This document shows positions 1,171 through 49,707 of a stretch of DNA of 51,062 nt, one piece after another. The notes beneath the pieces were generated by a model. It worked only from the letters and a program-made list of their open reading frames with translations, did no database searches and had not been told where the DNA came from. Where the stretch lies: the IMG/VR virus record IMGVR_UViG_3300017658_000232, positions 1 through 51,062 of that record. One strand, 5' to 3'. Within the stretch, counting starts at the first letter, position 1, and every line of letters begins with the position of its first letter. This DNA is from a virus. Taxonomy: Duplodnaviria > Caudoviricetes. The translations under genes were made by a program, and so were the position numbers.

Positions 1171-2048
1171 TTATTTTATGCGGATTTTCTGATTTGGATA
1201 GATTAAATTAATGTTCTTAATGCTTGGATTTAACTTCTTAATAGCAGCAACTGTTGTTTTTTCTTTTTTGACAATGCTAGTTACTGTTTCATTCTTTTTA
1301 ACAGTATGGTATTTCACTGTTGATGATTTTACTGCAGTTTTTTTATTTTCAGACGGATTGATCCAGCTGCCGGGCACGCCTTTTACTTTTGTTACGTTGA
1401 TCATATCACCAGACTTATTGAATACATAATAAGAACCTTTTTCCACTGCACCTTTTTGGTTTTTCTTGTTCTTAGCGTCTGCTGCATTGACATAAGCACC
1501 TACTGATTTGACCACTTTATATGTGCTCACCTTAGTTGTTTCAGCTGCTACTTTTGTTTTTTCTGTTTCTGCAACTTTTTCCTCCGCCCAATGACCAGGA
1601 GACTTTTTAATCTCGTTGCGATCAATACTAATGCCAGCTACTTTCACATCATTTTCATATTGATGCATATGAATAAAGTCTGCCACTTTCCCACGGCTCC
1701 ACGCGTATGTTTGCCAGTAGTAATCGGCAATTCCCTTTATTGCGTTAATAGTTGTATAGGAGCCATACACCCCTAATTTATATCCTTCTAATGTTTGCTT
1801 AACTGCTTTGAAATAAGCCATAATAGCTTTAACATGTGAAGATTGAGAATCAAAATCTACCGCGAAATAAATAGCTGTTCCTTTAGGTTGATCAACTGCT
1901 GCTGCATTTTGAATAGCTTTCGTTTCTATTTTATCAAAAGACTTCTAGCTGTTACCTAAGTAACTTGCCACATATACAAAACCTAGAGATTTCATTTCTT
2001 TTGCTTTTTTGCTGTTAATTTAGTCGCACAATCAAATTCTTTTGCCAT
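1171..2048 (-). pseudogene. Endolysin pseudogene: DUF1906-type glycoside hydrolase plus SH3-like and LysM domains
   Basis: Starts MAKEFDCATKLT at 2048, with a frameshift near 2005, an in-frame stop (YLGNS*KSFD) and an apparent internal deletion; then AIYFAVDFD, GVYGSY, YWQTYAWS motifs; C-terminus nearly identical to the 7532..8545 endolysin. Confidence 0.8.
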
Positions 2049-2561: not shown

Positions 2562-3152
2562 CTAAATATATTGCATTATCTTTTCAATTGGATTTTTTAT
2601 TAACCCTTTACGATAGTCATCGATAAAATTACTATAGGTTATTTCTAATATATTTTCTAATGTAAATTGATGCTCTGGATAAATATCAAGCATGTCTCTT
2701 AAGATAAATTCTCCTTTGAGTGCTTGCTGGTGGGATAGAGTTACTTTTACCTTTTGAAATCCCCTTTGCTCTTCAAATAAAACTCCTCTATAAATTTCCT
2801 CTGTTTGAAATGGCTTTATAATAGAAGGAGAAAGATCTCGTATGGTCAGTTTTTTATAAACTTCATGTAAGTCATTTCTCTTTTTAAAGTGCTCCAAGAA
2901 ATCTTCATACAATATCTTTGCCAGATCTTTTGTTTCGAATTTCCCTTCCAGCTCTTCTGAAATATCTTCGCAAAAAGAAACCGAACGAAGAAATAAATAT
3001 TCTGGCACATAAAAAGTAAATGTGTGCTTTGGATTGCGGGGACAAAAGAAATTATTCGTTATTCTGTCCCAAAATCCTGCCCCCTCTAATCCTTTTCTAT
3101 TTTCTAAAATCCCCTTCTCTTTTCCAATGATATCTAATGCGCTGAAAATCAT
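2562..3152 (-). CDS. Hypothetical protein with two putative ribbon-helix-helix-like segments
   Basis: 196-aa ORF coupled to the upstream gene; strand-helix-helix patterns TFTFYVPEYLF and KVKVTLSHQQAL. Confidence 0.6.
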   Translation of the reverse strand: MIFSALDIIGKEKGILENRKGLEGAGFWDRITNNFFCPRNPKHTFTFYVPEYLFLRSVSFCEDISEELEGKFETKDLAKILYEDFLEHFKKRNDLHEVYKKLTIRDLSPSIIKPFQTEEIYRGVLFEEQRGFQKVKVTLSHQQALKGEFILRDMLDIYPEHQFTLENILEITYSNFIDDYRKGLIKNPIEKIMQYI

Positions 3153-3583
3153 TAAATACCACCCCTATTGTCATGTATTTTAATACCTGATATGCGCTCG
3201 ATATATGTTTTAACAATGCGATGTACCATTTCTCTATAAGTTACGTCCAGTTCATCTGACATCGATTCGATCATTTCAAAAAATACTTTTTCTAACTTCA
3301 CATGCACAAAGCTGCCAGTATTATCATAAAAATGCTTCTTTGTGTATTCATGTGTTTTAGCCAATTCATGTTTAACTAGCATAGCAACAAATGGTGTTAA
3401 CTTTAAATTATGTTTGTGTGCTTCTCTTTTCAGCAGCAGCTTATCCTCGGCGTTTAATTTTATCTTTGTATCTATCTTTCTATCAGAGCGTTCTTTTCGT
3501 ATTTTTTTCGGCGGGGAAGCGTTCATTTTTCTTGGTCGAGCCACAATATCTTTTCTCCCAAAGATCGTGCTGCTGTTATCCAA
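3152..3583 (-). CDS. Hypothetical tandem RHH-like DNA-binding protein
   Basis: 143 aa, strong RBS GAAAGGAG; basic RKERSDRK, then DTKIKLNAEDKLLLKREA and FVHVKLEKVFFEMIESMS RHH-like patterns. Confidence 0.65.
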   Translation of the reverse strand: MDNSSTIFGRKDIVARPRKMNASPPKKIRKERSDRKIDTKIKLNAEDKLLLKREAHKHNLKLTPFVAMLVKHELAKTHEYTKKHFYDNTGSFVHVKLEKVFFEMIESMSDELDVTYREMVHRIVKTYIERISGIKIHDNRGGI

Positions 3584-3629
3584 AGGTCCTCTCTCCTTTC
3601 AAAATTGCCCTCATTTTATAAAATAGCTT

Positions 3630-3661
3630 AGGGTTTTGGGGTCTCAGGGTTTCTGGGTTCA
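3630..3661. repeat. Four tandem 8-bp repeats (nGGGTTTC consensus)
   Basis: AGGGTTTT GGGGTCTC AGGGTTTC TGGGTTCA in the intergenic gap. Confidence 0.7.
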
Positions 3662-3684
3662 ATAGAAAATGAGAAGGAGGGAGG

Positions 3685-3939
3685 CTATATGAAACTAGAA
3701 ATATCCTCTTCCTCTAGTTCCTCCTCTACATGAACAGGATAAGAAGAAGCTGGCATTATGCCTTCCTTATCTCGTTGCAAAAGCCGCTTTAAATGGTGAC
3801 TATGTTTATACTGCCATAAATGCTCCAGCAACCCTAACTCAAAATCATCGGTAAATTTAAAAGATACACTAATTACTATGCGGTCTTTTCCCTGTGCTTT
3901 TTTCTCTTCTATTACTGCAGTTAAATCTTTTTTACTCAT
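3685..3939 (-). CDS. Putative ParR-like adaptor (RHH-like N-terminus, acidic C-terminal tail)
   Basis: 84 aa overlapping the parM stop; ISVSF strand, HLKRLLQRD helix, EEELEEEDISSFI tail. Confidence 0.6.
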   Translation of the reverse strand: MSKKDLTAVIEEKKAQGKDRIVISVSFKFTDDFELGLLEHLWQYKHSHHLKRLLQRDKEGIMPASSYPVHVEEELEEEDISSFI

Positions 3940-4796
3940 TTGTATATCCTCTTTGCCAATTCAAACCCGCCGACTGCATTTGCGTATACCGGATGCAATA
4001 GTGTTATTTTGGCTTTTTGTTTGTATTTAGGGATAAGTATTTTCGCATTTTGATAGTATTCCTTAAATGAACCATCAAACTTTTCCGCAATGCCACCGCA
4101 TACATGCACAGCTGCTTTCCTATCCCATTTAAGCTTTGTTAGATTAACAGCAACCCCGCGAGCTAAGGAATCATAATTATCCTTTTGGCTTATGGTATCC
4201 GTACCAAAATTGAACGTATCCGATGATCTATTAATATGCTTCCTGTCTCTTATCTTAGCTGCATTTACCGTACCACTGCCAATATCAACAATTAAAGCGT
4301 CGTCACCTAGATCTGCTGCCCAAAATGCCATGCTGCCCTCTGCCCCAACTTTAACATCATGGATGAGTATTTCTTTTTGCTCTCCATTAATTCCAAAAAC
4401 ATGTCGGCCACCCAACATATCTTGGATTTTTTCTTTTTCTTCTTTTACATGCCCTTTTATCGGCTGTCCAGTTACTATGTACAATTCCTTTGTTCCTGGG
4501 CAAAACTTTTCTATATATCTATAAGCGCTGATTAATGCACGTATTTTCATATCTCCATGTGCTTTGCTATCTCCATAAATGGAAGATCCGCCAAATTCAT
4601 TCTCATACTCTGCGATTGGTCCTGCAAAACCTCTTTTACCATCAATCTCAAATTCGAGATCATCCTCACTAAATTTTTCATCAATATTCCGTTCGAACCA
4701 GTCACAAATGTTTGTTTTAAAGTAATCATATCCATGCCATCCTACTGTTTTTCCTCCATTATTACCGCAATCGAGCATTAAAATTTCTTTTGCCAT
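3936..4796 (-). CDS. ParM/StbA-family actin-like ATPase
   Basis: Actin-fold motifs LDCGN (phosphate 1), VTGQP, AEG (connect 1), IVDIGSGT (phosphate 2), VCGG (adenosine), YANAVG (connect 2). Confidence 0.88.
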   Translation of the reverse strand: MAKEILMLDCGNNGGKTVGWHGYDYFKTNICDWFERNIDEKFSEDDLEFEIDGKRGFAGPIAEYENEFGGSSIYGDSKAHGDMKIRALISAYRYIEKFCPGTKELYIVTGQPIKGHVKEEKEKIQDMLGGRHVFGINGEQKEILIHDVKVGAEGSMAFWAADLGDDALIVDIGSGTVNAAKIRDRKHINRSSDTFNFGTDTISQKDNYDSLARGVAVNLTKLKWDRKAAVHVCGGIAEKFDGSFKEYYQNAKILIPKYKQKAKITLLHPVYANAVGGFELAKRIYK

Positions 4797-5017: not shown

Positions 5018-5218
5018 ATGAAGGCTCGTATTGGAGAAATCAGAAAGAGTAAAGGGTTAATGCAGAAATTTGTAGCCAATCAAGTTGGAATTTCTCAGCA
5101 ACAATTAAGTGATTTTGAAAAAAATAGAGCATTTCCTCGTATTGATAAAGCCTATAAAATAGCCAAAGTACTGGATTGTACAGTTAACGATTTATATGAA
5201 TGGGAAGAAGAAAAATAA
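5018..5218 (+). CDS. XRE-family HTH regulator
   Basis: QKFVANQVGISQQQLSDFE HTH; RBS AAAGGAG. Confidence 0.88.
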   Translation: MKARIGEIRKSKGLMQKFVANQVGISQQQLSDFEKNRAFPRIDKAYKIAKVLDCTVNDLYEWEEEK

Positions 5219-5235
5219 AAAGGAGCATCATTTAA

Positions 5236-5499
5236 ATGAATTGGGAAAGAAAAGCATTAGAAGCTATGATTTTAAAAGCCATTGAAAGGGAACAGACATA
5301 TAAAGAGAAAATATATAAGTTGGAAGATTTAGGAGTAACTTTAGATTTAGGTGATTTTTCTTATGACATACTAAAAGAAGTGATGAATGAATGGCCTGTA
5401 TTTACAGAAAACCTACATGCCCTATTTCATGGAGAATTATCTACGGAAGAATTTCTTGCTACTGGTTTTAAATATATAGAACAAAAATATAGTAAGTAA
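5236..5499 (+). CDS. Hypothetical protein
   Basis: 87-aa ORF with RBS AAGGAG, co-oriented with the HTH gene. Confidence 0.7.
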   Translation: MNWERKALEAMILKAIEREQTYKEKIYKLEDLGVTLDLGDFSYDILKEVMNEWPVFTENLHALFHGELSTEEFLATGFKYIEQKYSK

Positions 5500-5535: not shown

Positions 5536-5572
5536 AAAAAATCCTCCTCATAAAGAGAAGGACTTCTTTTTT
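5536..5572. terminator. Bidirectional intrinsic terminator
   Basis: AAAAAATCCTCCTC-ATAAA-GAGAAGGACTTCTTTTTT between convergent genes. Confidence 0.55.
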
Positions 5573-5577
5573 ACTTT

Positions 5578-5718
5578 TTATATTCCTTTACCTGGATCGA
5601 ATGTATAACCTCCTGAAAGTAGATCAAAAGAAAAACCTCCACCGCTTGGGTCACTGCTATATCCTGAACCTCCACCCGGGTCTTTATTTATTTTCATACC
5701 TTCGCCTAGATCTGTCAT
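5578..5718 (-). CDS. Unannotated 46-aa peptide of five tandem D-P/L-x-G-G-like units
   Basis: MTDLGEGMKINKDPGGGSGYSSDPSGGGFSFDLLSGGYTFDPGKGI*; RBS AAAGGGATG 7 nt before ATG; terminator downstream. Confidence 0.75.
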   Translation of the reverse strand: MTDLGEGMKINKDPGGGSGYSSDPSGGGFSFDLLSGGYTFDPGKGI

Positions 5719-5817
5719 ATACATTCATCCCTTTCTTTCACAATATATTTCTATTAGACAAGGTAATGTACTTTTATCTGTCTATTATGAGAAAGCATAT
5801 TACTAAGTGTAAAACTT

Positions 5818-6567
5818 TTATATTGTTACTGAATGTCGTTCTTTAATAATTTGATCTGATATGATACAATTTTGTCCCTCTTTGTATACATACTCCCAAG
5901 GACCACCCACTCGATGCGTTCTATCAACCAGTTCATGAGCACTCACTTCTAAATAAGTGAGAACAACATCAGCTACACATTTAGCAGCTTGAAAACTATG
6001 CTCAGAAGACAATACTTTCATTAAAGATGGAGTGATTATCATCTTATCTGCACTTATACTATATTTTGCATCTTCTTTATAATCAATTAAAGATGAACCG
6101 TGTACTTTATATTTATGAAATACACTCTCAACTACAGGTCCATATTTAAAAGCAATTATAGGTTCATTAAACAACTTTTTTCCTGTTCGCAAAAGAAACT
6201 CAGAATATACATAATAAATTAGCTTTTGTAGTTTTAAATGTGAGACAGAAGTAATTGTTAAAATAAACTTAGCAACATCGTACGCCGTCAATTCTTGATC
6301 ATTCGAAATTACCTCTATAAATGCATCCAAATTTTTTGTGATAATCATATCTTTAAAGAACGAATCCTTATCAACAACCGATTCCCATTTAACTGAACCA
6401 GTAGAAAGTTTGTGTATTCCAAATTGGACATCGCCACAGTGTTTTCTTATTTTCTCTAAAGATGCTTCAATAATTTTTTTATCAAGTTTTTCCTCACTGG
6501 CATAATGCCAAGCGAATCTTCTACCTTCCAAAAAATCACTGACTGTGAGAATAAAATGAAATGCCAT
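5818..6567 (-). CDS. Panacea (DUF4065/SocA-like) antitoxin with N-terminal PAD1-like domain
   Basis: SHLKLQKLIYY and AFKYGPVV motifs; ~90-aa N-terminal extension; directly downstream of the SAS gene. Confidence 0.88.
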   Translation of the reverse strand: MAFHFILTVSDFLEGRRFAWHYASEEKLDKKIIEASLEKIRKHCGDVQFGIHKLSTGSVKWESVVDKDSFFKDMIITKNLDAFIEVISNDQELTAYDVAKFILTITSVSHLKLQKLIYYVYSEFLLRTGKKLFNEPIIAFKYGPVVESVFHKYKVHGSSLIDYKEDAKYSISADKMIITPSLMKVLSSEHSFQAAKCVADVVLTYLEVSAHELVDRTHRVGGPWEYVYKEGQNCIISDQIIKERHSVTI

Positions 6568-6579
6568 GAAAACACCTCC

Positions 6580-7260
6580 TTAATAATACTCTTTGGAGTC
6601 TTTATAAATCTTAGCCCACTCTGTGTATTCCTGTTTATGAAGCGAGTGTGATGTATCATTATTTATAGCATCACACCTTTTCCATATTTGCAATTCCCAT
6701 GGGAAAAACTTATTACTTTCTCCAAAAAAGTAAACATGAGTTGCTTTATAATCCCCTTTTGAAGCATCTCTTGCAGTAATCATATTCGGGTAGTTATGTG
6801 TAAGATATTCACAGAGTAAAGTGAAATTTTTATTAGTATGCTCAAAAGTGTCTACAGTTATCCTAAAACCCAGCAAATCATTTAAACACTTTTGTATCGC
6901 CATCTTACCTTCTTCTGTTTTTCCAACCCTATAATATTTAATTTTCCCTACAATAGATGCAGGTTCTTTTATACGAGCTCTGAAATCTAAATCACTGAAG
7001 TCGTATTCTAAGTCTGTTTGAGCAAGAACAAACTTTAATCTTTCTGTATATTTTTTCAATAAATAATAAAAACTATCCGTAATCATAAATAAAGCAGATT
7101 GATTAATAACTTCAGTAACTTCCGTTATATGTCTTATTTGTTTCTTTTTTAAATTTTTTAATTCCACATCTTTTAGTAAACTAAACTCTGTTGAAAAATC
7201 ATTATGCAGTATATATATTTCTTCAATTAATTTTTTTATTCTTTCGTATAAAAGCTCCAT
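6580..7260 (-). CDS. Toxic small alarmone synthetase (RelA/SpoT nucleotidyltransferase, PhRel2/FaRel2-like toxSAS)
   Basis: RIKEPASIVGK (syn1), NDLLGFRI (syn2), GDYKATH (syn3), WELQIW (syn4); paired with a Panacea antitoxin; alternative start 7281. Confidence 0.85.
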   Translation of the reverse strand: MELLYERIKKLIEEIYILHNDFSTEFSLLKDVELKNLKKKQIRHITEVTEVINQSALFMITDSFYYLLKKYTERLKFVLAQTDLEYDFSDLDFRARIKEPASIVGKIKYYRVGKTEEGKMAIQKCLNDLLGFRITVDTFEHTNKNFTLLCEYLTHNYPNMITARDASKGDYKATHVYFFGESNKFFPWELQIWKRCDAINNDTSHSLHKQEYTEWAKIYKDSKEYY

Positions 7261-7531
7261 ATAACAATCCTTGCAACTCACTGTTTTATATTTATTTTAT
7301 ATGTTGTATATAAAATATTCAATACATATGTTCTTATATAAATTTACACATCTTGTTAAGAAACCATCCGGTGATCTATATATTGTGTTTACACATAAAA
7401 ATTCCTATCAAAACATGTATAATTTTCTATATATAGACTTATAAAATATTTTACAAATTTAAAAAACTCATCTCAAAGAGTAGGACTGTGAAAGGTAATA
7501 ATGAACTATATTATTATTTCTCCTCCCCCGT

Positions 7532-8545
7532 TTATTTTATGCGGATTTTTTGTTTAGGGAAGATTAAATCAATATCTTTGATGCTTGGATTCAACTTTTT
7601 AATAGCAGCAACCGTTGTTTTCGCGTCTTTGGCAATGCTTGTTACGGTTTCATTCTTTGCAACAACATGATATGCGGACTTAGCTGCAGACTTTTTGTTC
7701 TCTGCTGGATTGATCCAGCTGCCGGGCACGCCTTTTACTTTTGTTACGTTGATCATATCACCAGACTTATTGAATACATAATAAGAACCTTTTTTCACTT
7801 TACCTTTTTTGTTTCTCTTATTCTTAGCATCTGCTGCATTGACATAAGCGTTTACTGATTTTACTACTTTATATGTGCTCACTTTAGCTTTTTCGGCTGC
7901 TACTTCTGTTTTTGGTGCTTTTACAACCTTTTCTATAGAAACATCGCGATAAGCATAGTTCATATCTACATTTCCTTTTATCCCAGCAACTTTTCCAGAA
8001 TCCGTATATTGCCAAATATCATATTCGCCTCCATACGTACATTTAGCGCCCCATTGAGCTACCCATTTTTTATATTTATCTAGCTTGCTGCTTTTTAATT
8101 GGTTATTTAACCAGCTTAAACTTGCGTACAAACGCACTTCATAACCAGCGTCTTCCATGCTAGATAAAAAGGCTTCACAAATTTCTACTAATACTGCATT
8201 ACTTGGCATACCATGTTTTTTCTTATAGCCATCTGCATCCTCCATATCAAAAGCAATAGGATATGTTGGATTTTTGCCTTTCAGTAATCGTTTAGCATGT
8301 TCTACTTCGCTTTTTGCTTGTCCTACATTAAGAGCATAACTATATATATACGCGCCCCATTCAATTCCTACACGCTCTACTTCTCTTACATTTCGTTCAA
8401 ATTGATCATCATCCTGCGCTTTTATATCACTACCGATTCCCAGTCGCAGCATAGCAAATTTTACTCCGTCTGCTTTCACTTTATCCCACTCAATAAGCTT
8501 ATTATGTTCTGATACGTCAATTCCTTTAATTTCGATTTTTGCCAT
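7532..8545 (-). CDS. Endolysin: GH25 muramidase, SH3-like domain and LysM
   Basis: GIDVSEHN, FDMED, WVAQW, IWQYTDSG..VDMN motifs; C-terminal LysM YHVVAKNET...IFPKQKIRIK. Confidence 0.92.
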   Translation of the reverse strand: MAKIEIKGIDVSEHNKLIEWDKVKADGVKFAMLRLGIGSDIKAQDDDQFERNVREVERVGIEWGAYIYSYALNVGQAKSEVEHAKRLLKGKNPTYPIAFDMEDADGYKKKHGMPSNAVLVEICEAFLSSMEDAGYEVRLYASLSWLNNQLKSSKLDKYKKWVAQWGAKCTYGGEYDIWQYTDSGKVAGIKGNVDMNYAYRDVSIEKVVKAPKTEVAAEKAKVSTYKVVKSVNAYVNAADAKNKRNKKGKVKKGSYYVFNKSGDMINVTKVKGVPGSWINPAENKKSAAKSAYHVVAKNETVTSIAKDAKTTVAAIKKLNPSIKDIDLIFPKQKIRIK

Positions 8546-8610
8546 TTTAAACACTCTCCTAATAATTTTTATTTTTTTATATAGAAAAAGAGCACCTATT
8601 TAGGCACTCT

Positions 8611-8835
8611 TCACTTCGTTAAATTATTTGATTTTAAAACTTCTTTTTGTTTAAGGCCTTTTTTCGAAAGGTAGTTGTTCTTCCAAGCCACATATATAAA
8701 ATAAACACCAGAGCCAACGGCAATGATGTCATTTACTAAATCCTCTGGAATTGTTTGATATCCTAACATGTTTAAAACTGTATTGACTACAGCTACAATA
8801 AGTAATGTAAATCGTGTAACACTTGCTTTATCCAT
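8611..8835 (-). CDS. Holin, SPP1 family
   Basis: MDKASVTRF..LIVAVVN..L and WKNNYLSKKG motifs; upstream of the endolysin. Confidence 0.88.
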   Translation of the reverse strand: MDKASVTRFTLLIVAVVNTVLNMLGYQTIPEDLVNDIIAVGSGVYFIYVAWKNNYLSKKGLKQKEVLKSNNLTK

Positions 8836-47667: not shown

Positions 47668-48252
47668 ATGATGATGCAAATTTTAGAGAAGAAAATAGAT
47701 GATTGGGAGCAACGGGCAAATACAGTACTTTCTCATTTTAATTATCAACATGCAGATGAAATTGATTTATATGATATCTGTTGGAGATACGGTATTGTCA
47801 TTAAACCCCTAGATCAAAACTATTTTGCAGACATCGAAGAATATACATCTATTAAACATTTAAAATCATACTCTATCCCAAAACAAAACGGTCGTCGCGG
47901 CACAATCTACATTGTCCCTGACCTAGATCCAGTTGAAAAAAGAATGCTATTAGCAGAAGAATTTTGCCATATCTACTCCCATTACTCTTCCCAGCTAATG
48001 ACGGACAAGCTTACATTAGATAAGCAAGAAAGCCAAGCAAAACGGATGTCAGCATACCTGCTTATGCCCCACCACTTCCTAAAAGATATTTATGCAGCTA
48101 CAGTCAATGAGCCAATATTAATAAACGATATTGCTGATCACTTTCTGGTGACAAAAGAATTTGCGCATTACCGGCTGGAGTTGATTTACAAACATAGGGT
48201 GGATGGGTTTGTGCAGATTAGGGAGAGATTGTGGAGTTTGGAGATTTATTAA
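47668..48252 (+). CDS. ImmA/IrrE-family metallopeptidase (antirepressor)
   Basis: LAEEFCH (HExxH variant) and ESQAKRMSAYLLMP. Confidence 0.85.
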   Translation: MMMQILEKKIDDWEQRANTVLSHFNYQHADEIDLYDICWRYGIVIKPLDQNYFADIEEYTSIKHLKSYSIPKQNGRRGTIYIVPDLDPVEKRMLLAEEFCHIYSHYSSQLMTDKLTLDKQESQAKRMSAYLLMPHHFLKDIYAATVNEPILINDIADHFLVTKEFAHYRLELIYKHRVDGFVQIRERLWSLEIY

Positions 48253-48281
48253 TTAATAATTTATTCAAGGAGATAAGGAAA

Positions 48282-49169
48282 ATGCATAAAAGAACGTTCT
48301 ACGCAGCTAAGATTAATGTACATGAGAATATATTTAGTTTAGATTTAAATGAAATTATAAATGTTCATATTCCTAGAGTCATTATAGAATCCAAACCAAT
48401 AAAAATTAATTCATGGAATTGGTCTTTTACTGATGTATCAAAGATTCCTAACAACAATGAAACTATAATAATTGGCAATGTCACAAAATCAAAATTCAAA
48501 AATCAAAAAGTTAAGATTGGCGACAAAACTGTACAAAGAACAACTGATTATGAGTTAGCACACACTGCTTTCTTTGTTTATGATCCTCAATCTGAAATCC
48601 TAGCACATGAAAGTACTGGTTCTATTAGTGCTCAAGAGTTCAGAGAATTATTCACAAAATTATTAAGCAGCGATACTATGGTTGGTGATGTTGTTATCAA
48701 TCCTATACCAGTTCCACAACATATTAGAAGCCAATTACTTACAATTGATAATATAACTCATGTAGGATTTTATTTAATACATCCTAACCCAGGTAAAGAA
48801 GAATTTAATTCCTATCAAGATATTATAAATGATGCAGGATTAAAGGAATTAATTATTCAAATGGAGAATAAAGATGGTTTTAAGGTACTTTCTGACAAAA
48901 CAAGCGATGAAAAGCCAGAGTTTATTAATTCCATTGAGAATGGTATTAGCTTAGTTGAATCTGGTTATGGTACTATTGACGTAAAAGGATATAACGAAGT
49001 AGTTGTAAAAGGAAAAAGAAAAGATAGAATTGAAAAGTCTAAAAAGAAATTTTCCTCCAGAAAATCAGTAAGACATATTATTTTACATGAGATCGACAAT
49101 TTAAGTCTCGTTAGTAAATTATGTTCATTTATTAAGTTATCTAAAAATAAAGTTAATAGTGGTGATTAA
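48282..49169 (+). CDS. DUF4747-like protein (RexA-like exclusion component)
   Basis: 295 aa; FFVYDP..EILA.E, HPNP and ESGYG..DVKG patterns recalled from DUF4747. Confidence 0.6.
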   Translation: MHKRTFYAAKINVHENIFSLDLNEIINVHIPRVIIESKPIKINSWNWSFTDVSKIPNNNETIIIGNVTKSKFKNQKVKIGDKTVQRTTDYELAHTAFFVYDPQSEILAHESTGSISAQEFRELFTKLLSSDTMVGDVVINPIPVPQHIRSQLLTIDNITHVGFYLIHPNPGKEEFNSYQDIINDAGLKELIIQMENKDGFKVLSDKTSDEKPEFINSIENGISLVESGYGTIDVKGYNEVVVKGKRKDRIEKSKKKFSSRKSVRHIILHEIDNLSLVSKLCSFIKLSKNKVNSGD

Positions 49170-49707
49170 TTTGGTAAATAAAAGAAAAAACAAGTTGCAG
49201 TATAATGACACTACTTATTTAGGGTTATTTAAAACAAAAGGGATTAAGTTTTACATAAATTGGTCCCTTTTCTGGGCTTTCTTAATAACAGGTTCAATCG
49301 GTTACTTTCTATGGAAAACCGGCGATTTTAGTAAACAAGTTAATGATATTGGGTTCGCTATTAATGAACCACTAATTGGTGCTTCAGCCTCCATATTTGG
49401 AATAGTAATAGCATCCCTAACTTTAACAATTACTTTATTTCATCAGTCTTTACTTCCTATCATGCTAGAAAAAAAACTATTACACAAGTTTCTCTTTCCG
49501 TTTTGGAAAGCAGTAAGTCTATGGGGAATTAGCATTTTATTATGCCTTTTATTAATCGTTTGTGAGAACGCTATTATATTAGCTCCTTTCACTAATTATT
49601 TTACTTTTTTAGAGATATTTATTTTTTTATATTCCACCTTTTACACTGTAAGTTTGACAGGATTAGTTATTCAATTAGCACTTCAAAGAGCTCAAATGAA
49701 AGATTAA
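49159..49707 (+). CDS. Four-TM membrane protein (RexB-like effector)
   Basis: Four hydrophobic segments; overlaps the upstream gene. Confidence 0.7.
   Translation: MVINLVNKRKNKLQYNDTTYLGLFKTKGIKFYINWSLFWAFLITGSIGYFLWKTGDFSKQVNDIGFAINEPLIGASASIFGIVIASLTLTITLFHQSLLPIMLEKKLLHKFLFPFWKAVSLWGISILLCLLLIVCENAIILAPFTNYFTFLEIFIFLYSTFYTVSLTGLVIQLALQRAQMKD

What the first reader, a model, noticed from the sequence alone, without database searches (positions are those of the whole stretch)
5578..5718. Hidden 46-aa ORF of five tandem DPGGG-like units with no signal peptide: possible signalling-peptide mimic
Seen: MT-DLGEG-MKINK-DPGGGSG-YSS-DPSGGG-FSF-DLLSGG-YTF-DPGKGI*, with a good RBS and downstream terminator. 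The 9-11-aa units are conserved in protein but diverged in DNA, which suggests selection on the peptide. It lies ~100 bp after the Panacea antitoxin on the same strand. From recall (unverified), x-D/E-P-G-G-G ends resemble mature arbitrium/RRNPP peptides of some Bacillus phages. No AimR/Rap TPR receptor is in the window and there is no secretion signal. Inference: a cytoplasmic multi-specific decoy that binds receptors of incoming phages and pushes them to lysogeny. Alternatives are a third TA component or a Gly-rich spore peptide.
Basis: partly seen in the sequence, partly recalled or inferred. Interest (0 to 1): 0.75.

Follow-up and report, generated by a model that had tools for sequence, protein, structure and literature searches.

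The report
Leaderless string of arbitrium-like peptides
A tiny but real prophage gene joins five look-alikes of the short "go dormant" signal peptides of Bacillus-type phages end to end, with no export signal and no receptor, which suggests a tool for deceiving rival phages.

Summary
A 46-aa ORF lies on the minus strand at 5578-5718. It has an AAAGGGA ribosome-binding site 9 nt upstream and a strong terminator, and starts 99 nt after the Panacea antitoxin gene. It parses into five D-[PL]-x-x-G units and has no DNA-level repeat.

It is a gene family, not chance. I found 14 further ORFs of the same build, with 3 to 6 units each, in Niallia and other Bacillales prophages and in metagenomes. None has a hydrophobic leader.

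The units resemble real arbitrium signals. The 13 AimP pro-peptides I extracted beside AimR genes in the same bacterial family end in DPGGGGH, DPGGGGS, DPPMGG, DPKPGG, DLPRGG, DPGTGGH or DPGGVGH. Five of six non-trivial AimP cores occur exactly as units in the leaderless ORFs (post hoc null mean 0.86, P about 1e-4).

The window has no AimR, TPR_12 or RNPP_C match. The gene is not tied to the toxSAS-PanA pair.

Best reading (about 0.5): a receptor-less concatemer of arbitrium-type peptides that, once cut up, acts on the AimR receptors of other phages. Expression, processing and binding are untested. None of the window's own five units exactly matches an AimP I saw.

This scan noted similar leaderless tandem arbitrium mini-genes before, on other DNA. 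I found no paper that describes them.

The parts
5578..5718 (-). 46-aa ORF (stop codon included) made of five D-[PL]-x-x-G units: DLGEGM, DPGGGSGY, DPSGGGF, DLLSGGY, DPGKGI
   Evidence: Searches give the ORF. No Pfam, PHROG or NCBIfam family matches.
5728..5734 (-). Shine-Dalgarno sequence AAAGGGA, 9 nt before the ATG at 5718
   Evidence: Read. The equivalent AAAGGGAG / AAAGGAGG is conserved in L001, L007 and L050.
5536..5568 (-). Intrinsic terminator hairpin with T run. It can also end the convergent plus-strand genes 5018-5499.
   Evidence: 14 pairs. It is nearly identical in L001 and L007 and analogous in L050.
5784..5813 (-). Promoter-like site TTTACA-18-CATAAT between the PanA stop and the ORF. 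This is weak evidence and the site is not conserved in relatives.
   Evidence: 10 of 12 matches. The upstream DNA is unalignable with L001 beyond about 45 nt.
5745..5756 (-). Short upstream element containing TAGAAAT, shared with the relatives. It may be a -10-like box; its function is not shown.
   Evidence: Read.

Best explanation
The ORF is a real, translated phage gene. Its product is nothing but a string of arbitrium-type (AimP-like, 'DPG class') signal peptide units, with no Sec leader and no cognate AimR receptor. Proposed mechanism (inferred, not shown): the peptide is made in the cytoplasm of the lysogen or of the lytically infected cell. Peptidases cut it into 6-9-residue units, either inside the cell or after release by lysis, in which case the pieces would be re-imported through the oligopeptide permease as ordinary AimP is. 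The freed units then occupy the AimR receptors of other, rival arbitrium phages. Those rivals read a false 'many infections have happened' signal and go or stay dormant, which spares the carrier prophage's host or removes competition. Carrying several different units would let one gene address several rival 'dialects'. The gain, loss and swapping of units between close relatives would then reflect an arms race.
For: (1) It is a gene. The Shine-Dalgarno site, the start and the terminator are conserved, while the interior changes only in whole codons or whole units. There are five close relatives: L001 (= P0003), P0004, P0023, L007 in Niallia sp. NCCP-28 and L050. There are nine more distant ORFs of the same build (L051, L052 x2, L053, L055, L056, L057, L060, L061). 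The genome hit rates were 2 of 18 in the genus, 9 of 269 in the family (E<=0.1, one of them broken by a stop) and 3 of 401 in an order sample (E<=0.01). (2) It is phage-borne. The window is a provirus rated 100% complete. In L052, L054 and L057 the ORF follows a roughly 155-aa HTH regulator; L057 and L056 also carry a terminase small subunit downstream, and L053 and L055 lie beside YolD-like and LysM-lysin genes. (3) It resembles true signals. Of 21 AimR loci from the same bacterial family, 13 have a leader-bearing AimP ending in ...DPGGGGH (twice), DPGGGGS, DPGGGGR..., DPPMGG, DPKPGG (twice), DLPRGG..., DPGTGGH, DPGTGT..., DPGGVGH (two copies in one AimP), IPGGGGGIGGG or SPGGGGIGGD. Among 61 units in the 15 leaderless ORFs, DPGGGG occurs 11 times, and 5 of 6 non-trivial AimP cores (DPPMGG, DPKPGG, DLPRGG, DPGTGG, DPGGVG) occur exactly. 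A position-independent null gives a mean of 0.86 and P about 1e-4. The window's KDPGGG is shared with the L034 AimP end VKDPGGGGH. (4) No leader: the highest hydropathy is -0.69 to 0.86 in all 15 ORFs, against 2.12-3.32 in the 13 AimPs. (5) No receptor. There is no AimR, TPR_12 or RNPP_C match in the window. None of the 9 family-level carriers is among the 20 AimR genomes, and only sub-threshold or partial hits appeared in them. (6) Where a carrier element does have its own arbitrium system (G296), the AimR lies about 6 kb from the ORF, its own AimP ends ...TVPTGG, and the leaderless ORF holds different units. (7) Published work shows that arbitrium cross-talk pushes the receiving phage into early lysogeny and raises the emitter's fitness (bioRxiv 10.1101/2025.10.13.681967, abstract and passages; Cell 2026, PMC13220667, abstract and passages). 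(8) A bona fide AimR (291 bits, L029) is followed by a leaderless mini-ORF MRDPGTVIGN instead of a leader-bearing AimP, so leaderless forms of this signal class do occur next to a receptor.
Against: There is no evidence of transcription, translation, processing or binding for this ORF. None of the window's five units is an exact copy of an AimP that I saw. The exact matches come from other family members. The units are short and Gly-rich, and my unit test was designed after seeing the data. In the one solved clade (SPbeta), AimR grips both free ends of the hexapeptide (PMC6458997, passages). Each internal unit would therefore need two precise cuts by unknown peptidases; only the C-terminal unit DPGKGI has a natural free carboxylate. 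Targets look scarce in the host genus: AimR scored over the cut-off in 1 of 18 Niallia species genomes, and that AimP ends ...YIPGGGGGIGGG, without a DP. Residues before the units (K, S, F, T) differ from the mostly Ala, Val or Leu before the DP of true AimPs. Carriers do not visibly co-occur with AimR within the family (0 of 9), which a forced-lysogeny function might have predicted, although the expected count was only about 0.7.
Confidence: 0.5

Rival explanations
1. It is the phage's own communication signal, read by a receptor that is not of the AimR/RRNPP type and that I did not recognise. The leaderless peptide would be released when cells lyse and would report past lysis to kin.
For: In L052, L054 and L057 the ORF sits just after an HTH regulator, and in L056 and L057 upstream of the terminase small subunit, which fits production during lytic growth. 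A leaderless MRDPGTVIGN mini-ORF sits in the aimP position next to a true AimR in L029, so a leaderless self-signal is conceivable.
Against: No candidate receptor co-varies with the peptide. The neighbouring 66-aa HTH is 98% identical between the window and L007, while the peptides differ in length and units (46 aa with 5 units against 31 aa with 3 units). There is no TPR or RNPP domain in the window. Several different units in one product are hard to explain for a single self-signal.
Confidence: 0.15
2. It is a small disordered Gly/Pro/Asp-rich protein with a role unrelated to arbitrium. It could be a ribosome-stalling leader (DPP, PPP and PPG runs depend on EF-P, from general knowledge), or a decoy or binding partner for some host or defence protein. 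The likeness to AimP would then be convergence on a DPG turn motif.
For: Its composition is low in complexity (G+P+D fraction 0.35-0.65). L057 and L050 are rich in DPP and DPPP. In L056 and L057 the ORF lies upstream of the terminase small-subunit gene. The complex job reported the partner's own fold as uncertain, which I cite only for disorder.
Against: In the window, L001, L007 and L050 the ORF is followed at once by a terminator, with nothing downstream to regulate. Exact reuse of specific and unusual AimP cores such as DLPRGG, DPKPGG and DPPMGG is not expected from a mere turn motif.
Confidence: 0.22
3. It is a third component of the toxSAS-Panacea toxin-antitoxin module that lies just upstream.
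For: It lies 99 nt downstream of PanA on the same strand, with no strong terminator between them.
Against: Relatives sit after other genes: a small membrane protein in L001, an opposite-strand 317-aa gene in L007, a 110-aa gene near pgi in L050, and HTH regulators upstream, terminase small-subunit genes downstream, or YolD-like genes alongside elsewhere. Three of the three PanA-bearing phages that I opened (GBSV1, Bloom, Callan) have no such ORF.
Confidence: 0.02
4. It is not translated. The conserved block would be a small RNA or merely the approach to a bidirectional terminator.
For: There are no expression data. Two weak Rfam matches lie far below their gathering scores (25 bits against 55-60). 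An antisense frame is also open in the window.
Against: Strong Shine-Dalgarno sites stand at the right spacing in all members. The frame is kept open through indels of whole units. The D-P-G pattern is kept while the DNA diverges. The antisense frame is not conserved in extent.
Confidence: 0.04

Closest known systems
AimP, the arbitrium pro-peptide, in its 'DPG' classes: B83 ...MADPGGSVG, RBClin15 and LambdaBa01 ...VDPGGGGW, mature DPPVGM in the extended-arbitrium preprint, and the 13 AimPs found here beside AimR
   Same: The unit sequences are alike: D-P followed by 2-5 mostly Gly or Pro residues, then G and H, W, S, F, Y, I or M. Several family units are identical to AimP cores. Both are phage-borne and occur in the same bacterial family.
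   Different: There is no Sec signal peptide. The gene is not downstream of aimR, and the window has no AimR at all. The product holds 3-6 different units with 2-4-residue spacers, instead of one unit (rarely two) at the C-terminus. It stands as its own unit with its own ribosome-binding site and terminator.
Arbitrium cross-talk and manipulation between phages (Manley et al., bioRxiv 10.1101/2025.10.13.681967; 'Phages communicate across species', Cell 2026, PMC13220667)
   Same: The proposed effect is the same: a non-cognate but similar peptide makes the receiving phage lysogenise early or stay uninduced, to the emitter's benefit (abstracts and passages read).
   Different: In those studies the emitters are ordinary arbitrium phages using their own secreted AimP. 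Here there would be a dedicated gene, without receptor or leader, that carries several dialects. Neither text mentions such genes in the passages I searched.
Multi-copy RRNPP pro-peptides. Seen here: the L040 AimP with two DPGGVGH copies, and L086 and L091 with two DPVEPP... copies. Multi-repeat Phr pre-peptides are recalled only, not checked.
   Same: More than one mature unit is encoded in one precursor.
   Different: Those precursors have leaders, repeat the same unit and sit beside their receptor.
Leaderless communication peptides such as SIP of the RopB system in Streptococcus pyogenes (recalled, not checked here), and the leaderless mini-ORF MRDPGTVIGN beside AimR in L029
   Same: A signalling peptide made without any export leader.
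   Different: Those are single peptides paired with an adjacent receptor.
Earlier notes of this scan: leaderless tandem mini-genes built of SPbeta-type or Wbeta-type arbitrium peptides, and one DPG-hexapeptide mini-gene cassette
   Same: The same architecture and the same proposed role.
   Different: They concern other peptide classes, hosts and phages, and mostly phages that have their own arbitrium system. These are unchecked AI notes, not independent evidence.

Membership tests
AimP (arbitrium pro-peptide) | A mature-peptide motif of an arbitrium clade at the C-terminus | tested here: inconclusive
   The C-terminal DPGKGI fits the D-P-x-x-G-hydrophobic format of DPPVGM (10.1101/2025.11.23.689978, passage). 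The internal KDPGGG equals part of the L034 AimP end. No AimP that I saw ends in DPGKGI. One pattern scan of viral contigs gave only a chance hit.
AimP (arbitrium pro-peptide) | An N-terminal Sec signal peptide that directs secretion | tested here: not met
   The highest 12-aa hydropathy is 0.67, against 2.12-3.32 in 13 AimPs. A TGA stop lies directly upstream of the first ATG.
AimP (arbitrium pro-peptide) | Encoded directly downstream of aimR | tested here: not met
   PF22871 finds nothing in the window or in the Niallia sp. NCCP-28 genome. The upstream gene is PanA.
AimP (arbitrium pro-peptide) | A match to a curated AimP family model | tested here: inconclusive
   There is no NCBIfam, Pfam or PHROG hit. 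The genuine Wbeta AimP also gets no NCBIfam hit, so the test has no power for these clades.
AimP (arbitrium pro-peptide) | The processed peptide binds AimR and shifts the lysis-lysogeny decision | not testable with these tools
   This needs peptides, AimR proteins, reporter strains and phage assays.
toxSAS-PanA toxin-antitoxin module (as a third component) | Constant genetic linkage with the toxin-antitoxin pair | tested here: not met
   None of the 14 relatives that I examined with context lies beside PanA. No DPG ORF exists in GBSV1, Bloom or Callan, which do carry PanA.
Rap-Phr / RRNPP cassette | An adjacent TPR receptor | tested here: not met
   There is no TPR_12 or RNPP_C match anywhere in the window.
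New family proposed here: leaderless tandem DPG-unit peptides of Bacillales prophages | A 28-58-aa ORF with a Shine-Dalgarno site, M-[KRTI] followed by 3-6 D-[PL]-x(2-5)-G units, and no hydrophobic segment | tested here: met

The most novel reading that the evidence does not exclude
Temperate phages of Bacillales carry a class of 'signal-forging' genes: leaderless, receptor-less concatemers of rival phages' arbitrium peptides. They would be made in the cytoplasm and freed by peptidases or by lysis, and they would force competing arbitrium phages into dormancy. Their unit content would turn over fast, as in an arms race. The window's gene would be a DPG-class member carried by a phage that has no arbitrium system of its own.
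Probability: 0.45. Interest if true: 0.9.

Novelty: new variant of a known kind. Interest (0 to 1): 0.8.

Why it matters
Arbitrium is the model for communication between viruses. Until 2025 each phage was thought to hear only its own signal. Recent work shows that cross-talk exists and benefits the emitter. A dedicated gene that emits several foreign signals without listening to any would be the first evolved deception tool in this system. It would explain why arbitrium peptides and receptors diversify so fast. It would also give a directly testable handle: short synthetic peptides, reporter strains and one small deletion. In addition it shows that unannotated 30-60-aa ORFs at prophage ends and at the head of late operons can carry social functions.

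Tried and rejected
Searches that found nothing:
- Megablast of the locus and of 22 kb of structural genes against the phage collection gave no match. tblastn of the peptide there gave no match either.
- Back-translated scans of viral contigs and genome contigs with the first alignment gave no confirmed relative.
- Pfam, PHROGs and NCBIfam gave no family for the peptide. Rfam gave only two matches far below their gathering scores.

The exhaustive profile search listed 19 proteins at E<=0.001. Three are the small family members P0002, P0003 and P0004. The other 16 are long (114-4191 aa). I read four of them (P0005, P0008, P0015, P0016) and set them aside as unrelated repeat proteins. I did not read the other 12.

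The complex prediction of the AimR from L034 with the window peptide gave no verdict (score 0.02). It is neither support nor evidence against binding.

Sequencing runs: two metatranscriptome runs hold contigs over PanA (5856-6434) but none over the small ORF. These are contigs, so this says nothing about its expression. DNA contigs of run X3 share the terminator but carry other units (loose ends read as ...PELDPPAGW* and ..CDPPIG..). I use this only as a hint of natural variation.

A pattern scan for D-P-G-K-G-I followed by a stop found one chance match inside a primase-like gene.

The weak AimR-like hit in G009 (L028) is a generic 334-aa TPR protein with no peptide gene beside it. I dropped it as a receptor candidate.

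Rejected readings: third toxin-antitoxin component (see rival explanations), and Gly-rich spore peptide (no family hit and always phage-borne).

Literature searches for a prior description were (badly chosen terms, mostly irrelevant hits). None returned a paper on leaderless or tandem arbitrium peptide genes. Stokar-Avihail et al. 2019 (PMC6986904) is not held. Supplementary tables were closed, including Supplementary Table 1 of PMC12700828 and the AimP lists of Erez 2017 and Stokar-Avihail 2019. They may hold AimPs that match the window's units.

Full report
**What is there.**
The finding's ORF lies on the minus strand at 5578-5718 and reads MTDLGEGMKINKDPGGGSGYSSDPSGGGFSFDLLSGGYTFDPGKGI. A Shine-Dalgarno sequence AAAGGGA (5734-5728) stands 9 nt before the ATG at 5718. 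An in-frame ATG at 5724 is only 3 nt from it, and a TGA stop directly precedes that ATG, so no longer N-terminus exists. A hairpin of 14 pairs with a T run (5568-5536) follows the stop. It faces the convergent plus-strand genes, an XRE-type HTH at 5018-5218 and an 87-aa ORF at 5236-5499.

Upstream on the same strand lie, in order:
- a holin (8611-8835),
- a GH25-LysM lysin (7532-8554),
- a RelA/SpoT-like toxSAS (6580-7281; Pfam 26.1 bits, just under the 27-bit cut-off; PHROG 4012 at 3.8e-58),
- a Panacea-domain antitoxin (5818-6567).

The window is a provirus record rated 100% complete. The five units show no DNA-level repeat.

**It is a conserved gene.**
Word-indexed searches of 5.8 billion proteins and an exhaustive profile search of 1.84 billion representatives found three small relatives besides the window's own entry: P0003, P0004 and P0023. 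The other 16 hits are long proteins. I read four of them and judged them unrelated repeat proteins.

P0003 is encoded on a 1634-base metagenome contig, L001. Its database form of 80 aa reads through a TGA. Under table 11 the ORF is 45-47 aa.

A search with the neighbouring HTH protein led to Niallia sp. NCCP-28 (L007; HTH 98% identical). That locus has the same actin-like segregation cassette and a 31-aa relative. Profile searches of genomes then found:
- L050, in a second species of that genus (2 of 18 genomes),
- seven more loci in the family (9 of 269 genomes at E<=0.1; one ORF is broken by a stop; L052 has two consecutive ORFs),
- two loci in an order-wide sample (3 of 401 genomes at E<=0.01, G001 included).

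All have a strong Shine-Dalgarno site. Among the close relatives the ribosome-binding region and the terminator are nearly identical, while the interior differs by whole units. For example, L001 has an extra 24-nt unit and a different C-terminal unit. This pattern is what a translated, fast-evolving cassette gives.

**Where the family sits.**
The gene is not tied to the toxin-antitoxin pair. L001 has a small membrane protein upstream. In L007 an opposite-strand 317-aa gene separates the ORF from the lysis genes. In L050 it lies about 1.3 kb from pgi. Three PanA-bearing phages (GBSV1, Bloom, Callan) lack any such ORF.

In L052, L054 and L057 the ORF directly follows a roughly 155-aa HTH regulator; L054 and L057 give weak GerE-type hits, L052 gives no Pfam hit. 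A terminase small-subunit gene lies downstream of the ORF in L056 (Terminase_2, 3e-43) and, judged only by similarity to the L056 protein, in L057. This position could be the head of a late operon; that is inference, as the regulator's role is unknown. L053 and L055 lie beside YolD-like and LysM-lysin genes. The family is thus phage-borne, and it sits either near the terminase genes or in the variable region at the prophage end.

**Likeness to arbitrium signals.**
- the B83 AimP pro-peptide ends ...YYMADPGGSVG (PMC6669507, passage),
- the RBClin15 AimP ends ...MMVDPGGGGW (PMC11526630, passage),
- a mature peptide DPPVGM is used in bioRxiv 10.1101/2025.11.23.689978 (passage),

I then collected real AimPs from the host's own bacterial family. 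PF22871 (AimR) hits 20 of 269 genomes. Of the 21 loci, 13 carry a leader-bearing small ORF just downstream whose end is one of DPGGGGH (twice), DPGGGGS, DPGGGGR..., DPPMGG, DPKPGG (twice), DLPRGG..., DPGTGGH, DPGTGT..., DPGGVGH (two copies in one AimP), IPGGGGGIGGG (the Niallia one) or SPGGGGIGGD.

The 15 leaderless ORFs hold 61 D/N-[PL]-xxxx units. DPGGGG occurs 11 times. Five of the six non-trivial AimP cores (DPPMGG, DPKPGG, DLPRGG, DPGTGG, DPGGVG, but not DPGTGT) occur exactly. A position-independent resampling of the same units gives a mean of 0.86 matches, with P about 1e-4. I designed that test after seeing the data.

Hydropathy separates the two sets cleanly: -0.69 to 0.86 for the leaderless ORFs against 2.12-3.32 for the AimPs. 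For the window's own peptide the closest match is KDPGGG, shared with the L034 AimP end VKDPGGGGH. None of its five units is an exact copy of an AimP core that I saw.

**Receptors.**
The window has no AimR, TPR_12 or RNPP_C match. The NCCP-28 genome has no AimR. None of the nine family-level carriers is among the 20 AimR genomes. More permissive searches of them gave only a partial 29-bit hit with a stop on another contig (G222) and two sub-threshold hits.

The two order-level carriers, G296 and G341, do have several AimR-family genes. In G296 one lies about 6 kb from the ORF. It has its own canonical AimP ending ...TVPTGG, while the leaderless ORF holds other units. The neighbouring HTH cannot be a cognate receptor: it is 98% identical between the window and L007, although their peptides differ greatly.

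**Mechanism: what is shown and what is inferred.**
Shown:
- a conserved, Shine-Dalgarno-preceded, terminator-bounded, leaderless ORF family in prophages,
- units that mirror natural AimP ends of the same bacterial family,
- no receptor in the window.

Established elsewhere:
- AimP is secreted, processed and re-imported, and it binds AimR to favour lysogeny (papers cited above),
- non-cognate but similar peptides push the receiving phage into early lysogeny and raise the emitter's fitness (10.1101/2025.10.13.681967 and PMC13220667, abstracts and passages),
- in the SPbeta AimR complex both free ends of the hexapeptide are gripped, and this closes the receptor (PMC6458997, passages).

Inferred:
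- the concatemer must be cut into units, in the cytoplasm or after lysis followed by uptake,
- the units then act on the AimR of other phages.

The route, the peptidases, the timing of expression and the actual targets are unknown. No terminator-like site lies between the lysin gene and the ORF except a weak one inside PanA. The ORF could therefore be read both from the toxin-antitoxin or its own promoter-like sites and by late read-through. That too is inference.

**Rivals.**
The rival readings are a self-signal with an unrecognised receptor (0.15), an unrelated role for a disordered Gly/Pro-rich peptide such as ribosome stalling (0.22), a third toxin-antitoxin component (0.02) and a non-coding element (0.04). 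Their evidence is set out in the rival explanations.

**Novelty.**
Seven literature searches, and passages of the two cross-talk papers and one review, gave no description of leaderless, receptor-less or tandem arbitrium peptide genes.

After I had reached my reading, I found that this scan's own notes report the same architecture for SPbeta-type and Wbeta-type peptides in other Bacillus phages, plus one un-followed DPG-hexapeptide mini-gene cassette. These are unchecked AI notes that agree with my reading. They are not independent evidence.

I class the finding as a new variant of a known kind: an arbitrium-type peptide gene with a new architecture and probably a new social role.

Noticed in passing
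L029 (G040:C1:709022-712951), about 110 nt after the AimR stop: This locus has the best-scoring AimR of the family (291 bits). It has no leader-bearing AimP. Instead, a Shine-Dalgarno-preceded mini-ORF MRDPGTVIGN (10 aa, or 12 from an upstream ATG) is followed by a terminator. It looks like a leaderless arbitrium peptide sitting beside its receptor.
   Followed up: partly
L052:1292-1635 (minus strand): Two consecutive, overlapping leaderless DPG-unit ORFs (56 and 58 aa, 6 and 5 units) sit between an HTH regulator and downstream phage genes.
   Followed up: partly
L040, L086, L091 (AimP ORFs beside AimR): These are true, leader-bearing AimP pro-peptides that hold two copies of their mature unit (DPGGVGH twice; DPVEPPIK or DPVEPPLP twice).
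   Followed up: no
window 1171-1821 (-) and 2562-4796 (-); L007 1587-5777: Left of the small ORF lie a second, truncated LysM/glycoside-hydrolase-like lysin ORF and an actin-like (ALP_N) segregation cassette. Both are conserved in Niallia sp. NCCP-28. ParM-like genes also lie near the DPG ORF in L050 and L093. The element may be, or may have been, a phage-plasmid, or two elements may abut here.
   Followed up: partly
L001:196-438 / protein P0003: The public 80-aa form of this relative reads through a TGA, as if TGA coded for Trp. Under table 11 the ORF is 45-47 aa with its own Shine-Dalgarno site.
   Followed up: yes
window 5856-6434: Contigs of two rhizosphere metatranscriptome runs (X8, X12; different studies) cover parts of the PanA antitoxin gene at 99% or more identity. 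They may reflect transcription or carried-over DNA.
   Followed up: partly
window 5536-5663, contigs of run X3: Soil and rhizosphere DNA contigs share the terminator and part of the ORF, then diverge into other units. Read from the loose ends, these are ...PELDPPAGW* and ..CDPPIG... This hints at further natural alleles of the cassette.
   Followed up: partly
window 48231-49707 (+): A 312-aa protein with no Pfam family and a 182-aa multi-pass membrane protein lie between the ImmA-like protease gene and the integrase gene. Their function is unknown; they may be a defence or exclusion pair.
   Followed up: no
L093 (G296:C3:11500-23000): This element has its own AimR (401 aa), a canonical AimP (...TVPTGG), a ParM-like gene and, about 6 kb from the AimR, a leaderless four-unit DPG ORF with different units.
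   Followed up: partly
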